Part shown: in pieces, positions 8,506 to 25,029 of the stretch
Position numbering within the stretch: the first letter of the stretch is position 1
Layout: each line of letters starts with the position of its first letter
Assembly (NCBI RefSeq): GCF_009914755.1
Contig: NC_060926.1
Reading direction: 5' to 3' (one strand)
DNA length: 64,000 nucleotides
DNA from: the human T2T-CHM13v2.0 reference genome, Homo sapiens
The notes under the pieces: generated by a model
Databases searched by the model: none
The model's input: the letters and a program-made list of their open reading frames with translations, nothing else
What the model was told of the DNA's origin: nothing
Translations under genes and position numbers: made by a program

Positions 8506-8627
8506 CTAAATTAACAGTACTGTCACTGTCTTCTGGGTAAAACGTTGCTCAGCTTGTATTTGAAGAGGCCAAGATATGGCTGTGGAAGAAATTTGTTCTC
8601 TTAAGTGGTGTAAGCCAGTACTTTTTT
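8506..8627 (-). pseudogene. ZPAXP: Probable last coding exon (EKSTGLHHLREQISSTAISWPLQIQAEQRFTQKTVTVLLI*)
   Basis: ttcctctgtttatctgcag acceptor in phase 1; QISSTAI resembles an external hydrophobic patch; TAG at 8508-8506. Confidence 0.65.
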
Positions 8628-8931
8628 CTGCAGATAAACAGAGGAAGAAATATTCCTATCATTCCAGGGAAATTCTTCTCAAACTACCCTAGTCTTTGGC
8701 TAAAGTTCTGGTGCCTGTTTAACAAAAAGAGTCTACCTTTGGAAACACTGCTTCAGTTTTATGGACCTTAGCTTCAGGATTTGCTATTTTAAAATTTTCT
8801 ATAAAAACAGTTTAATATTCATTTTCAGATCCCTAAATTTCTTGCTCCTTCTAAAGTCAGATCCTTCCTTGAAACTAGCTTTTAAACCAAAAGAAAGTAG
8901 GAGATCTGATGTCCTGTCTTGAGCAATAACA

Positions 8932-9218
8932 TTTTTTTTTAGAGTCAGGGTCTCCCTCTGAGCTCAAGCTGAAGTGCAGTGGTACAATCATAGCTCATGC
9001 AGTCATGAGCTCCTGGGCTCAAAGATCCTCCTGCCTCAGCCTCCCAAGTAGTTAGGATTACAGGTACATGCCACTACGTGTGGCTAATTTTTTAACTTTT
9101 TGTGGAGATGCATTTTCACTCTTGCTCAGGCTGGTCTCAAACTTCAAGTCTCAAGCAATTCTCCCACCTCAGCCTCCCAAAGCACTATGATTACAGGTGT
9201 ACGCCACTGCACCTGGCC
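8932..9218 (-). mobile_element. Alu (AluJ-like)
   Basis: Alu consensus. Confidence 0.88.
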
Positions 9219-9357
9219 AACTTATTTTATACTTATCATCTGTTGTAATTTCTCAGGAAAGAGAGTTATCTGTATTAGATCTTTTGGTCAGATAGGCCAA
9301 CTACTTTTGACTGTCGTACTAAATCTGGTTATAGAGAAATATCATGAAGCAACACAC

Positions 9358-9453
9358 CAAGTTTCTGCTTGCCAGAAATGTACTTGTTTTGCATAGCAGG
9401 TCTGACATGGGTTTCTTTGCATCACATATTGCCATACTGCAGTGGACGTACAG
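9358..9453 (-). pseudogene. ZPAXP: ZP-C terminal exon (LYVHCSMAICDAKKPMSDLLCKT / ISGKQKL)
   Basis: attcctgcag acceptor in phase 0; 'YxHCSxxICD' motif; frameshift before KQKL. Confidence 0.9.
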
Positions 9454-9800
9454 CTGCAGGAATTAAGAGGCATTTGTTAGTGAAGTTGGCCAGGGTTATA
9501 AGCACTATCCTGGTAGGCCAACATTTCCAATTAAATTTGCATGGTCTAACCATATTCAACTAGAGGCTGCCATTTTAACCTGCTCTATAGTATGGGCTCA
9601 TTAACTTAGATCTATTCCTAGGTAATATTAGCTAAATAGATCAAGGTCAAGAGTCTGAATTCTTCAATCTCTTGTGATTTCATTTGATTTATAGGTCTGG
9701 TGATTCTAAAGTTTTAGAATATGGTAACAGTTTTATATAATGGTTATATAGCTTAATATGCAAATGTTTGTATTGTACTTCTAAAATATAGGGAGTTATA

Positions 9801-10138
9801 GGCCAGGCACAATGTCTCATGCCTGTAGTCCCAGCACTTTGGGATCCTGAGGTGGGTGAATCACGTGAGGCGAGGAGTTTGAGACCAGCCTGGCCAACAT
9901 GGTGAAACCTGTCTCTACTGAAAATATAAAAATTAGCTGGACATGGTGATGTACACTTGTAGTTCCAGCTACTCAGGAGGCTGAGGCATGAGAATTGCTT
10001 GAACCTGGGAGACGGAGGATGCAGTGAGCTGAGATGGTGCCACTGCACTCCAGCGTGGGCGATAGAGTGAGACCCTGTCTCACACACACACACACACACA
10101 CACACACACTATACAAATATATATATATATATATATAT
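9801..10138 (+). mobile_element. Alu (AluS-like) with (CA)n/(TA)n tail
   Basis: Alu consensus followed by microsatellites. Confidence 0.9.
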
Positions 10139-10476
10139 GGAGTTGTAAATAACAGACTTTATGTGCTATATGTATGATAGACCTATCATGAAAAATGTGA
10201 AGTAAAAAGATTATAAGTTAAAATAGAATGACTGTTATCTATCTCATCGCTGGAATGAATGACAATGGCTTTTTAGACTAGGCCATTTTATGAAAGAGTG
10301 TTACAGCCATTTTCAATTAAGATTTGCTAATTCATTCTAGTTTTTCTCTTGTCTAAATATCCACAACTAGACAAATCTGACTTTTTAAAATTAAATTGCT
10401 TTCACTTGGTCTTTAACCTGTCCATTGGCATATTTGAGCAAGTGTCAACACAGTCATAGATGAAGAACCTACTCAC

Positions 10477-10620
10477 ATCTTCCAATAATGCATTTTCTTT
10501 CTCCATGAAGGTAAACATTTTAAGTTCAAATCTCTTCACATGGGAAGGAAACTCACATCCATGAAGAAATTATATCCACGGGGTAGAAGACAGTTTCATG
10601 GAATCTCATCATTTGCAAAA
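10477..10620 (-). pseudogene. ZPAXP: ZP-C exon (FANDE / HETVFYPV / EFPSHVKRFELKMFTFMEKENALLED)
   Basis: tttttttttaaag acceptor, GAT|GTGAGT donor; 'PSHxKRFxxKMFTF' ZP-C signature; two frameshifts. Confidence 0.9.
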
Positions 10621-10761
10621 CTTTAAAAAAAAACACCAGAAAAGAACTAAGTCTCACTGTCACAGGAGACTCTAAATAGAGCTTTTATTCAAAGAATATA
10701 TTTAGAGGTAGGATGGTTGAGTAGAGGCTGCAGGGTGCAATGAGATTGGAATTTTAAAACT

Positions 10762-22646: not shown

Positions 22647-23384
22647 TGTTAAAGCAAACTAAATATGGCCTGTGAAAGACTGTGTACTTCTTTTTTTTTT
22701 GAGCTGGACTCTCGCTCTCTCACAAAGGCTGGAGTGCAGTGGTTCAATCTTGGCTCACTGCAACCTCCGGCTCCTGGGTTCAAGTGATTCTCCTGCCTCA
22801 GCCTCCTGAATAGCTGGGATTACAGGTGCACGCCACCATGCCCGGCTAATTTTTGTATTTTTAGTAGAGATGGGGTTTCACCATGTTGGTCAGGCTGGTC
22901 TTGAACTCCTGACTTCGTGATCTGCCTGACTTGGCCTCCCAAAGTGTTGGGATTACAGGCCTGAGCCACCGAGCCCAGACAGGACTGTGCACTTCTATAT
23001 TTGTGTCCTTGTGGAAGAACTGCAACCTAACTTAATAGGTAGACAAGATTGAAAACCTAACTTGGGAGCATGTGTCTGTAACAGTGACTGTGTCTTGGCC
23101 AGTCCCAGCAGCCATACTTCAACCACTCATACATACACTCTTGTGTTCAAACTGTGTTCAAATAAAGCAAACACTGGGCTGTAACCCATCCAAGTTGTTT
23201 CTGTGCCTCATTTCTGATTTCTGTATGTCACTTCCTTTTTTGTCTACAAATCTTCTTCCACTACATGGCTGCACTGGAGTTCCTCTGAATCTGCTGTGAT
23301 TCTGGGTGCTGCCCAATTCGCAAATTTTTCATTGTTCAATTAAACTTTTTCAAATTTGATTTGGCTGAAGTTTTTCTTTTAACA
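22647..23384 (+). mobile_element. ERV1 solo LTR (MER57-like) containing a minus-strand Alu (~22690-22980)
   Basis: TGTTAAAG...TTTTAACA termini; 4-bp TSD CAAC; Alu flanked by gactgtg(t/c)acttct duplication. Confidence 0.85.
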
Positions 23385-23424
23385 CAACCAAACAAGTCCT
23401 ATTCAGAGGGCATGGGACACTCAC

Positions 23425-23551
23425 CTGTATATAGGTGTAGCAGCTGAGGAGAGATGCCTGGAGCCTACGTTTCCCCAGTGGTCAGAGAGGTTGGTGTAGC
23501 CACTCTGGGCAGCCAGGGCCTCATCTGTCTTTCTTCCTGAGCCAAACTGAT
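23425..23551 (-). pseudogene. ZPAXP: ZPAX exon 4 (DQFGSGRKTDEALAAQSGYTNLSDHWGNVG / QASLLSCYTYIQ)
   Basis: ctctttcag acceptor, CAG|GTGAGT donor. Matches the ZP-N 'LAxQCGYT...WGN..F.AS.LSC' pattern. 1-bp deletion; QCGY reads QSGY. Confidence 0.88.
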
Positions 23552-24445
23552 CTGAAAGAGCCCCAGACAGCTTCTTACCAAATGCCCTTCTTCCTGTTTA
23601 GCCTCCAGGTGCTAATCCACCAGCCCCTACTTTATAGAGGAGAAAAAATACTTTAAGTTCACACAGCTGAGAAGAGCTGCAGCCAGGGTGCAAACCCAGG
23701 CAACTGACCCAGAGCCTGCATGCTCAACCCCTTTTTTGGGGTTTCAGGTTATTTTTAATAAAAGCAGAAATTTTGGTGCCCATCTTATTGACCCATGCCC
23801 CTAAGCCTCCAGGAAGTGCCTGGCACCCCAAAGGTGCTCAACTGGTGTCTGTTAAAAAATAAGTTACTATAATACTATGTGGCAGGGGCTATGCTGGGTA
23901 CTTGACAACTATCATTTCATCCATGCATCTCACTGCCCTCTGCAAAAATACATGGCATTGTCCCCAACTTATGGGAAAACAGAGGGTCAGAAAGGCTAAG
24001 TGCGCTTCAGGGGCACACAGCTATTGAGGAACAGAGATGATATGGTGTTAAGCCTAAGTCCAAAGCTCTCTCCATAATCATTTGTGGTTTCTAGAAAATG
24101 CATGGTGACTTATTGAAGAATTAGCCACCCAAACAGCTGTTTCTTCATGGTAGTCAATTCTTTAGATACATACATCCACCAAAATGTGAAATTCACCAAT
24201 TATGCCATCGCCAGAGTTCTAGGTCCCAGCAAAATACTCTTCAGATGGCACATGGGGCTGTGTTAATGCTATGAAAGCTAGAAGCTACCAAAGATTTATG
24301 GGAAACATGAGGCCCTTTGGAGCTCTCCCTACACAAGATGGAATCCTTGGAAGTGACCCAGACTAAGAAGAGATCATGTGACCACAACACCCCATGAGAA
24401 CTGAGAGCAGTTTAAGACTGTACCTGCAAAATCTGTGGTACTCAC

Positions 24446-24557
24446 CAACTACATGAAAGTCAAGATACTTGTCTCTGACATGGGCAAAGACATACTTGTC
24501 TCCCCAGGCTCATTTGCATGAGGCTCCCCACACTTTCAAGGATAATGAAGTCTGCAT
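24446..24557 (-). pseudogene. ZPAXP: ZPAX exon 3 (DADFIILESVGSLMQMSLG / HVRDKYLDFHVV), frameshifted
   Basis: Long polypyrimidine tract plus cacag acceptor, TTG|GTGAGT donor. Length 112 bp is out of frame. Internal direct repeat GAGACAAGTAT. Expected Cys reads Ser (AGT). Confidence 0.78.
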
Positions 24558-24657
24558 CTGTGTGTGCAGAAGCAAACAGAAGGAGGCAGTGAGCCTCTGG
24601 GTGCCACTTTTCCTAGCTCCTCCTTGCCAGGTGGACAAGAAAAAGCTTATCACCAAC

Positions 24658-24707
24658 CTGCAGCAGGGGCCCATGTCTGAAAGCCAAAAGCTCCTACAAT
24701 AATTAAT
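24658..24707 (-). pseudogene. ZPAXP: ZPAX exon 2, signal peptide core (LIIVGAFGFQTWAPAA)
   Basis: ctcttttatcag acceptor, CAG|GTTGGT donor, 50 bp, phase 2 in and phase 1 out, hydrophobic. Confidence 0.72.
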
Positions 24708-25006
24708 CTGATAAAAGAGCAAACTGTACTGTCAAGACTCTACAGGGATACCTTTTTCCTTCCTGCTTTGAGAGGTATAAGAAGTTCACCAAACATTCAG
24801 AAAGAGAGAGAGACAGGAGAAAGAGAGAGAGGTGGCTGCGCACAGATACAGAGACAGGGAGAAAGACAGGGAGGCAGGTGAACAGAGATACGGACAGAGA
24901 CGCTGACTAATTCCCTGACCTCTATTGCCTAAAATGCCAGAATCCTTGAGGCCCTGTGGTCTGCTCAGCTCCAGGCCTACAGTAAGAGCCACACAGAATT
25001 ACTTAC

Positions 25007-25029
25007 CTCACAGTACGATGCGGAGCCAT
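25007..25029 (-). pseudogene. ZPAXP: ZPAX exon 1 coding part (MAPHRTV-R)
   Basis: GCCATGG Kozak context (ATG 25029-25027); ends AG|GTAAGT in phase 2, matching the phase-2 start of the next exon. Confidence 0.75.

What the first reader, a model, noticed from the sequence alone, without database searches (positions are those of the whole stretch)
8506..25029. Near-complete fossil of a lost egg-coat gene: exon-by-exon ZPAX pseudogene on the minus strand
Seen: 17 short minus-strand segments, most flanked by polypyrimidine-AG and GT, translate in collinear order with mutually consistent splice phases. The order is signal peptide, N-terminal ZP-N repeats (QxGYT..WGN, REIxxETNYME, WMILMVDTAMACP, IPLGAEGGYYK, EHQWEDD), ZP module (YPVIKYL..ELL..DPQLEL.LEDC, PSHVKRF..KMFTF, YVHCS..ICD), stop. 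Most segments are missing or mis-framed in the ORF track. Established: these motifs characterise ZPAX, an egg-envelope protein functional in fish, amphibians and birds and reported as pseudogenised in several mammals (human symbol ZPAXP). Inference: this is the orthologous unitary pseudogene. Its existence is known; the full exon map including the 5' exons may not be annotated.
Basis: partly seen in the sequence, partly recalled or inferred. Interest (0 to 1): 0.88.

Follow-up and report, generated by a model that had tools for sequence, protein, structure and literature searches.

The report
Dead human egg-coat gene ZPAX
This stretch of human chromosome 2 holds the broken, exon-by-exon remains of ZPAX, an egg-coat gene that birds, reptiles, frogs and egg-laying mammals still use; the loss is already known, so the finding is real but ordinary.

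Summary
A profile of 65 ZPAX orthologues was run against all 4124 stop-free pieces of both strands of the window. It hits 13 pieces at E<=1e-4. All 13 are on the minus strand, lie within 9382-23576 and are collinear. I map 13 firm relic exons (E2-E14), a probable first exon (ATG at 24674) and a possible last exon (stop at 8506). That makes 15, not 17.

Junction phases agree once the indels are allowed for. AG acceptors are present at 12 of 14 sites and GT donors at 12 of 14.

The gene is dead. It carries 4 in-frame stops and 5-6 frameshifts, has lost conserved cysteines, and has no relic for about 230 residues (profile 373-601). So "near-complete" overstates it.

In a tree the human relic sits with elephant, then wallaby, then echidna ZPAX (supports 0.987, 0.929, 1.0). 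It is 60% identical to echidna ZPAX and 24% to human ZP2.

The pseudogene is in print (Goudet 2008, as cited in other papers) and in RefSeq. The RefSeq span covers only E2-E8.

In passing: a second, more diverged ZPAX-like relic lies 2.04 Mb away.

The parts
24446..24674 (-). E1 relic: ATG, signal-peptide relic, start of the first ZP-N repeat. Two compensating frameshifts inside. Donor GTGAGT, ends in phase 1.
   Evidence: tblastn with elephant model P0169 residues 13-38 hits 24582-24505 at 65% identity, E 2e-4. The chicken N-terminus scores 40 at 24659 against 22-35 for 8 shuffles. Sequence view. Probable, not firm.
23425..23551 (-). E2 relic (DQFGSGRKTDEALAAQSGYT..WGN..LLSCY). Acceptor CTCTTTCAG, donor GTGAGT. 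One frameshift near 23464.
   Evidence: Profile 49-88, E 1.3e-5. Frameshift shown. The phase-1 junction with E1 restores V-D-Q-F-G as in the orthologues.
21645..21789 (-). E3 relic (..DVDFIITVQ..SREI/ETNYME). Acceptor CCCTGCAG, donor GTAAGA. Frameshift at the Cys codon near 21663.
   Evidence: Profile 93-139, E 1.7e-9.
20188..20274 (-). E4 relic (ISVKKEVPLIPVDLL*DKPEDW). In-frame TAG at 20227-20229. GC donor (GCAAGT), or a GT 4 nt further on.
   Evidence: tblastn with echidna 153-185 at 62% identity, E 8.6e-7. Also wallaby and elephant..
19877..20020 (-). E5 relic (VTSGVASIWQTVF..DAHRAGYRINVTDTRILLQAGF), open.
   Evidence: Profile 174-223, E 7.8e-14.
19693..19789 (-). E6 relic (IQGITFTAVRSSTFYK*SWMILMVDTAMACPV). 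In-frame TAG at 19739-19741. No AG acceptor. Probably one ancestral exon with E5, split by roughly 60 extra bases that carry a TAA.
   Evidence: Profile 228-247 (E 1e-4) and 250-264 (E 1.1e-5).
18142..18365 (-). E7 relic, 75 codons, fully open, with both splice sites canonical (..IPLGAEGGYYK).
   Evidence: Profile 264-339, E 8.9e-27, 90.8 bits. 49 library proteins at E<=0.001. 64% identical to wallaby, 67% to elephant..
17515..17613 (-). E8 relic (THVGDRHYGATDSINLLLEHQWEDDSWGITKHT), open, 33 codons. Its 3' end coincides with the end of the RefSeq ZPAXP span.
   Evidence: Profile 336-372, E 9.1e-11.
16584..17514 (-). Site of the missing exons. Only 931 bases lie where about 230 residues (profile 373-601, internal ZP-N repeats) should be encoded.
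   Evidence: No profile hit anywhere in the window for 373-601. Alignment scores of 33 and 30 fall within the shuffled controls, 29-36 and 27-41. The elephant mid region finds nothing in the whole genome at E<=1.
16404..16583 (-). E9 relic, first half of the ZP-N of the ZP module. Open, but a 3-residue deletion and a C>R change remove conserved cysteines. Donor GTAAGA.
   Evidence: Profile 602-664, E 2.2e-12.
16243..16316 (-). E10 relic (FENDILTNENDVLYFQPGATDPMYQ), open. An 87-base intron precedes it. Ends in phase 2.
   Evidence: Profile 664-688, E 3e-6.
15861..15990 (-). E11 relic (LRCACWYLLHDAVTFHYQPKNN..LTMKVSKN), open. Acceptor TTTTCCTCAG. No GT donor left.
   Evidence: Profile 675-738, E 1.5e-12.
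14332..14539 (-). E12 relic, start of ZP-C (YPVIKYL..DPQLELSLEDC*..PQ*NII). Two W>TGA stops at 14405-14407 and 14366-14368. No AG at the edge of homology. Donor GTGTGT.
   Evidence: Pfam PF00100 ZP-C, E 1.7e-6, 28.6 bits, above the 24.6 cut-off. Profile 726-774, E 1.6e-16..
10477..10620 (-). E13 relic (HETVFYPVD../..FPSHVKRFELKMFTFMEKENALLED). One frameshift near 10555-10570. Donor GTGAGT.
   Evidence: Profile 815-851, E 2.4e-8. Pfam PF00100 E 0.024, below the cut-off..
9358..9453 (-). E14 relic (LYVHCSMAICDAKKPMSDLLC../..ISGKQKLG). One frameshift near 9380-9386. The Cys before IPGKQR is now Tyr. Donor GTGTGT, phase 1.
   Evidence: Profile 841-865, E 9.2e-6.
8506..8627 (-). E15, possible last coding exon (EKSTGLHHLREQISSTAISW.., stop at 8506-8508). 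Acceptor TTATCTGCAG, phase fits E14.
   Evidence: Weak. The wallaby tail scores 32 against 19-29 for 8 shuffles; echidna scores 24, within its shuffles. 17 of 40 orthologue tails have their best hit near 8600, but only 3 of 40 beat all 20 shuffles. No profile hit.

Best explanation
This is ZPAXP, the human unitary pseudogene of ZPAX. ZPAX is a secreted egg-coat glycoprotein with N-terminal free ZP-N (Ig-like) repeats and a C-terminal ZP module (ZP-N plus ZP-C).

The locus keeps the ancestral exon-intron layout on the minus strand from about 24674 to about 9358, possibly to 8506. It cannot make the protein for four reasons:
- four in-frame stops;
- five or six frameshifts;
- loss of conserved cysteines;
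- no trace of the exons for about 230 residues of internal repeats.

Shown here: the homology, collinearity, splice relics, lesions, phylogenetic placement and the absence of another such locus in the genome. Inferred: that it drifts neutrally since the gene became dispensable in placental ancestors, and that it has no present function.
For: Homology and collinearity
- Profile search: 13 of 4124 pieces at E<=1e-4, all minus strand, all collinear.
- tblastn with echidna, wallaby, chicken, turtle, pigeon-ZPAX and elephant proteins gives the same collinear series.

Lesions
- 4 stops and 5-6 frameshifts. 362/650 identical to wallaby and 369/625 to echidna.

Splice relics
- Splice sites and phases are consistent.

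Identity falls with species distance
- Echidna 291/486, wallaby 278/485, elephant model 278/469, turtle 259/486, chicken 231/486. Human ZP2 is 43/180.

Tree
- Human + elephant 0.987, + wallaby 0.929, + echidna 1.0, inside an amniote clade of 46 tips with support 1.0.

Uniqueness
- Genome-wide, the N-terminal exons match only at this locus.
- The ZP2 locus gives at most 5.4 bits for N-terminal profile positions.

Literature (passages read)
- PMC8005149, PMC3434135 and PMC4092215 all cite Goudet 2008 for a human ZPAX pseudogene.
Against: - The ZP-C exon alone does not tell ZPAX from ZP2. The intact ZP2 exon scores higher against the ZPAX profile (81.0 bits) than the relic exon does (56.8 bits).
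- Many database rows among the orthologues are auto-named 'ZP2' or 'ZP2-like'.
- Pfam recognises only 2 of 144 minus-strand ORFs, and none of the N-terminal exons. I ran no plus-strand control for Pfam.
- E1 and E15 rest on weak scores.
- Bird synteny is only indirect.
- An unnamed 75-residue database protein (P0001) starts with 47 residues identical to E7. Some gene model or transcript may therefore use this exon. I could not test for transcription.
Confidence: 0.95

Rival explanations
1. The locus is dead as a protein gene, but part of it still acts at the RNA level or as a short ORF. For example, a transcript could use the intact exon E7.
For: E7 is fully open over 75 codons with canonical AG and GT. 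An unnamed library protein, P0001, begins with 47 residues identical to E7 and then continues with sequence not found in the window.
Against: With about 10 lesions in about 650 aligned codons, my own arithmetic gives roughly a 0.3 chance that a 75-codon exon escapes all of them, so an open E7 needs no selection. No promoter-like rise in G+C occurs at the 5' end; the 24001-26000 bin has GC 0.42. RefSeq lists no functional element inside the locus (hub table). No expression data could be consulted.
Confidence: 0.04
2. The segments derive from ZP2 or another ZP-domain gene (a duplicated or retroposed copy), not from ZPAX.
For: The ZP-C exon matches mouse ZP2 in the PDB (5bup, E 8.3e-6). Many related database proteins are named ZP2-like.
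Against: Identity to human ZP2 is 43/180 (24%) against 57-60% to mammalian ZPAX. The N-terminal exons give no ZP2 hit in the PDB at E<=10 and nothing at the ZP2 locus. Introns are retained, so it is not a retrocopy. The tree places it inside mammalian ZPAX.
Confidence: 0.01
3. The similarity is a chance product of reading many frames.
For: None beyond the general risk with short motifs.
Against: 13 collinear hits down to E 8.9e-27 on one strand, and none on the other strand or elsewhere in the 64 kb window.
Confidence: 0

Closest known systems
ZPAX of monotremes, marsupials, sauropsids and amphibians (echidna LOC119931127 = P0006, tammar wallaby P0051, chicken 'zona pellucida protein precursor' P0126, pigeon 'ZPAX' P0105)
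   Same: Same exon series and domain order. ZP1/4-type Ig-like repeat, Ig_ZP2 repeat, further repeats, ZP-N and ZP-C fall at matching positions (Pfam on the orthologues; map). 48-60% identity.
   Different: The human copy has stops, frameshifts and lost cysteines, and lacks the part for residues about 381-609 of the echidna protein.
RefSeq pseudogene ZPAXP and the human ZPAX pseudogene of Goudet et al. 2008 (seen only as cited in PMC8005149, PMC3434135 and PMC4092215; the paper itself is not held)
   Same: Same locus and same reading.
   Different: The RefSeq span 17515-23525 ends exactly at my E8 and starts inside E2. It leaves out E1 and the whole ZP-module half (E9-E14/15, 8506-16583). I could not see which exons Goudet et al. 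mapped.
Human ZP2 (chr16 locus fetched as L014/L015; the gene name is from recall)
   Same: ZP module and free N-terminal ZP-N repeats. ZPAX and ZP2 belong to one cluster of ZP subfamilies (Feng 2018, PMC6262864, passages read).
   Different: 24% identity to the relic. The ZP2 N-terminal exons do not match the ZPAX profile. ZP2 is intact and lies on another chromosome.
Elephant gene models G3TYK1_LOXAF (P0169, 895 aa) and G3U3D3_LOXAF (P0003, 684 aa)
   Same: Closest relatives of the human relic (59% over profile columns; sister in the tree).
   Different: The models keep the mid region that human lacks. They read sense codons at all four human stop positions. They also contain odd stretches and lack the Cys of LEDC, so they may themselves be models over a decaying gene.

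Membership tests
ZPAX subfamily of egg-coat ZP genes | C-terminal ZP module (ZP-N followed by ZP-C) | tested here: met
   Pfam PF00100 on 14408-14569 (28.6 bits, cut-off 24.6) and, more weakly, on 10405-10569. Profile hits 602-865 lie in order on E9-E14. In the orthologues these positions are Pfam ZP-N and ZP-C.
ZPAX subfamily of egg-coat ZP genes | Array of free N-terminal ZP-N/Ig-like repeats with ZPAX-type sequence | tested here: inconclusive
   Relics of the first repeats are present and specific: E1-E8, profile 49-372, up to 90.8 bits. There is no counterpart at the ZP2 locus. The later repeats (profile 373-601) are absent.
ZPAX subfamily of egg-coat ZP genes | Groups with ZPAX orthologues in a tree, apart from ZP2 | tested here: met
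   FastTree, 80 rows by 896 columns, rooted on human ZP2 pieces. Human + elephant 0.987, + wallaby 0.929, + echidna 1.0. No true ZP1/4 or ZPY sequences were available as further outgroups.
ZPAX subfamily of egg-coat ZP genes | Conserved neighbourhood (MSGN1 on one side, KCNS3 on the other) | tested here: inconclusive
   The human side comes from the hub table. For chicken, the only evidence is that ZPAX is listed with VSNL1, SMC6, GEN1 and MSGN1 among six genes in four copy-number regions (PMC4092215). No paper holds both ZPAX and KCNS3.
Unitary pseudogene | Disabling lesions in an otherwise recognisable gene | tested here: met
   4 in-frame stops, 5-6 frameshifts and missing exons.
Unitary pseudogene | Introns retained (not a retrocopy) and no intact copy elsewhere in the genome | tested here: met
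   Introns of 87-3711 bases. The whole-genome six-frame search finds the N-terminal exons only here. The other ZPAX-like locus on chr2 is 35% identical and is itself broken. Caveat: one search used a stricter first look and may miss weak matches.

The most novel reading that the evidence does not exclude
Human 2p24 may keep the wrecks of two different ZPAX-type egg-coat genes.

Besides ZPAXP, a second collinear series of relic exons lies 2.04 Mb away on the other strand (G000 chr2:19,903,074-19,916,238). It is about 34% identical to every tetrapod ZPAX and 21% to ZP2. It includes the internal repeats that ZPAXP has lost. In the tree it groups (0.998) with a different, unnamed ZPAX-like clade.

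If it is not yet described, it would be the remains of a further lost egg-coat gene. It could be ZPY, which reviews say the mammalian ancestor had, or an old second ZPAX. The pair would then point to an ancient local duplication.
Probability: 0.35. Interest if true: 0.45.

Novelty: already known. Interest (0 to 1): 0.2.

Why it matters
The locus is a clean textbook case of gene death after a change in reproductive mode. The exon-intron skeleton of an egg-coat gene is still readable in human DNA.

The practical gains here are modest:
- an exon-level map roughly twice as long as the RefSeq span, adding the whole ZP-module half;
- a list of the lesions;
- the point that about a quarter of the gene is gone.

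None of the four human stops is shared with the elephant models. The visible lesions may therefore postdate the split of those lineages. That would make the timing and number of ZPAX losses in placentals testable.

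Tried and rejected
- Pfam on single ORFs recognised only the two ZP-C exons: 2 of 144 minus-strand ORFs of 33 aa or more. Nothing was added at E<=10 for 14 chosen ORFs. I planned a plus-strand Pfam control but did not run it.
- The word-indexed protein search with the 54-residue ZP-C exon found nothing.
- ESM Atlas scores for E7 were 0.82-0.84, which is lead level only. 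The cluster names were ZP Ig-like families, and one was 'zona pellucida protein AX 4'.
- I first took the profile overlap of 24372-24485 and 23457-23576 for a duplicated exon. The sequence shows instead that the E1 donor and E2 acceptor join in phase 1, and that the overlap was an over-extension into the intron.
- I first placed the stop near 9225, following the end of the elephant model. A donor at 9357 and the phase-matched segment 8506-8627 fit the non-eutherian tails better, though only weakly.
- P0033 and P0034 were tried as stand-ins for ZP2 and are not ZP2. The human ZP2 locus itself was used instead.
- hmmalign of joined pieces lost half the residues. I replaced it with piece-by-piece placement.
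These may list mammalian ZPAX homologues, pseudogenes and synteny.
- No paper holds 'ZPAXP', or ZPAX together with KCNS3.

Full report
**What is there**

To test this against chance I needed ZPAX sequences supplied by a tool. The open 82-residue frame 18121-18366 found 49 proteins at E<=0.001 in the 1.84-billion-protein library. The best long hit, P0006, is echidna LOC119931127. A search with P0006 returned 423 relatives, of which 120 were listed. They include:
- tammar wallaby (P0051);
- turtles, alligator, many birds, squamates and caecilians;
- a pigeon protein that its source names ZPAX (P0105);
- the chicken 'zona pellucida protein precursor' (P0126).

PMC4092215 refers to a chicken gene as 'zona pellucida protein (ZPAX)'. 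Matching it to P0126 is my inference.

From 65 of these proteins (those 870-930 residues long) I built a profile. I ran it against all 4124 stop-free pieces of 8 residues or more, on both strands of the whole window (2064 plus, 2060 minus). The result:
- 13 pieces score E<=1e-4, the best at 8.9e-27.
- All 13 are on the minus strand, lie within 9382-23576 and follow profile order 49->865.
- The next hit has E 1.6, and the best plus-strand hit has E 9.2.

tblastn with echidna, wallaby, chicken, turtle, pigeon and elephant proteins gives the same series.

**Exon map**

Firm exons:

| Exon | Coordinates |
|---|---|
| E2 | 23551-23425 |
| E3 | 21789-21645 |
| E4 | 20274-20188 |
| E5 | 20020-19877 |
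| E6 | 19789-19693 |
| E7 | 18365-18142 |
| E8 | 17613-17515 |
| E9 | 16583-16404 |
| E10 | 16316-16243 |
| E11 | 15990-15861 |
| E12 | 14539-14332 |
| E13 | 10620-10477 |
| E14 | 9453-9358 |

- E5 and E6 are probably one ancestral exon, split by roughly 60 extra bases.
- E1 (24674-24446) is probable. It has an ATG, a hydrophobic stretch resembling the chicken signal peptide (score 40 against 22-35 for 8 shuffles), and the ESVGSLMQMSL stretch that is 65% identical to the elephant model (E 2e-4).
- E15 (8627-8506) is only possible. Its acceptor and phase fit, and ISSTAIS resembles the VSSGAIS/VSSGAVIL motif of the orthologue tails. However, only 3 of 40 tails beat all 20 shuffles.
- AG acceptors stand at 12 of 14 sites and GT donors at 12 of 14. 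E4 has a GC donor and E11 has none.
- Once the indels below are allowed for, all junction phases agree. For example, E1/E2 restores V-D-Q-F-G and E10/E11 restores Y-Q-L-R-C, as in the orthologues.

**Lesions**

- In-frame stops: E4 at 20227-20229; E6 at 19739-19741; E12 at 14405-14407 and 14366-14368, both at Trp positions.
- Frameshifts: two compensating ones in E1, and one each in E2, E3, E13 and E14.
- Conserved cysteines are lost in E9 and E14.
- The E11 donor and E12 acceptor are degraded.
- Profile positions 373-601 (about 230 residues of internal repeats) have no relic. Only 931 bases separate E8 from E9, and alignment scores there equal the shuffled controls.
- The elephant version of that part finds nothing in the whole human genome at E<=1.

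About a quarter of the gene is therefore gone, and 'near-complete' overstates the case.

Over the aligned codons, identity is 362/650 to wallaby and 369/625 to echidna.

E7 is fully open. At about 10 lesions per 650 codons, my arithmetic gives roughly a 0.3 chance that a 75-codon exon escapes, so this needs no special explanation.

**ZPAX or ZP2?**

The ZP-C exon cannot decide. It matches mouse ZP2 in the PDB. The intact human ZP2 exon scores even higher against the ZPAX profile (81.0 bits) than the relic does (56.8 bits). Many orthologue rows are auto-named ZP2-like.

The N-terminal exons do decide:
- They give no ZP2 hit in the PDB at E<=10.
- The human ZP2 locus gives at most 5.4 bits for N-terminal profile positions, against up to 90.8 bits here.

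Over profile columns, the relic's identity falls with species distance:

| Compared with | Identity |
|---|---|
| Echidna ZPAX | 60% |
| Elephant model | 59% |
| Wallaby ZPAX | 57% |
| Turtle | 53% |
| Caecilian | 49% |
| Chicken | 48% |
| Human ZP2 | 24% (43/180) |

A FastTree tree (80 rows, rooted on the ZP2 pieces) puts the human relic with elephant (0.987), then wallaby (0.929), then echidna (1.0), inside the amniote ZPAX clade.

A six-frame search of the whole genome finds the N-terminal exons only at this locus. That search used a stricter first look.

**Synteny**

The hub table places the locus between MSGN1 and KCNS3. For chicken I found only an indirect statement. ZPAX is listed with VSNL1, SMC6, GEN1 and MSGN1 among six genes in four copy-number regions (PMC4092215, passages).

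**What is known**

Passages in PMC8005149, PMC3434135, PMC4092215 and PMC6262864 cite Goudet et al. 2008 for ZPAX pseudogenes in human, chimpanzee, macaque and cow. That paper is not held, so I cannot say which exons it mapped.

RefSeq annotates ZPAXP at 17515-23525. The lower end equals my E8 end, and the upper end lies inside E2. E1 and the ZP-module half (E9 onward) therefore lie outside that span.

No held paper contains 'ZPAXP'.

**Verdict**

The added value is a longer exon map, a lesion list, and the correction that a quarter of the gene is missing.

**Found in passing**

The genome search also hit a second series on chr2, 2.04 Mb away on the plus strand.
- The ZPAX profile gives 14 hits at E<=10 among 1785 pieces of a 30 kb stretch. 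All are on the plus strand. Thirteen of them run in profile order from 69 to 824 between 19,903,074 and 19,916,238; the remaining one (E 4.5) is out of order. Seven have E<0.01.
- The locus includes the internal repeats that ZPAXP lacks, and it has several in-frame stops.
- It is about 34% identical to every tetrapod ZPAX, 35% to ZPAXP and 21% to ZP2.
- In the tree it groups (0.998) with unnamed ZPAX-like proteins P0034, P0036, P0048 and P0049, outside the tetrapod ZPAX clade.
- Reviews say the mammalian ancestor also had ZPY (PMC8005149). Feng 2018 reports ZPY pseudogenes only for zebra finch and alligators in its main text.
- I had no ZPY sequence, so the identity of this locus is open.

Noticed in passing
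outside the window: G000 chr2:19,903,074-19,916,238, plus strand (loci L009-L013): A second collinear series of relic exons from a ZPAX-like gene. It includes internal repeats and ZP-N/ZP-C parts and has several in-frame stops. It is about 34% identical to tetrapod ZPAX and 21% to ZP2. In the tree it groups with an unnamed ZPAX-like clade (P0034, P0036, P0048, P0049; support 0.998). It may be the relic of ZPY or of an old second ZPAX. Whether it is annotated or described is unknown to me.
   Followed up: partly
proteins P0169 and P0003 (UniProt G3TYK1_LOXAF, G3U3D3_LOXAF), compared with window exons: The elephant gene models keep the mid region that human lacks. They read sense codons at all four human stop positions and at the E2, E13 and E14 frameshift sites. 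They also contain odd stretches and lack the Cys of LEDC. Either elephant lost ZPAX later and differently, or the models paper over lesions.
   Followed up: partly
window 18220-18360, minus strand: An unnamed 75-residue library protein (P0001) starts with 47 residues identical to exon E7. It then continues with 28 residues not found in the window. This may be a gene model or transcript that splices out of E7.
   Followed up: partly
window 22218-22283, minus strand: This stretch lies in the E2-E3 intron. It is 54% identical over 22 aligned residues (E 0.086) to a part of the elephant model that lies between its E2 and E3 parts, and it faintly resembles the start of E3. It is not matched by non-eutherian ZPAX. 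Unresolved.
   Followed up: no
window 19790-19876, minus strand: The 87 bases between E5 and E6 are in frame with both and carry a TAA. They contain a short inverted repeat (AAGCTATA .. TATAGCTT). This looks like an insertion of roughly 60 bases into one ancestral exon rather than an intron.
   Followed up: partly
window 9190-9215, minus strand: The sequence GGCCAGGTGCAGTGGC.. resembles the start of an Alu element (from recall). It begins right after the stretch that the elephant model reads as its C-terminus.
   Followed up: no
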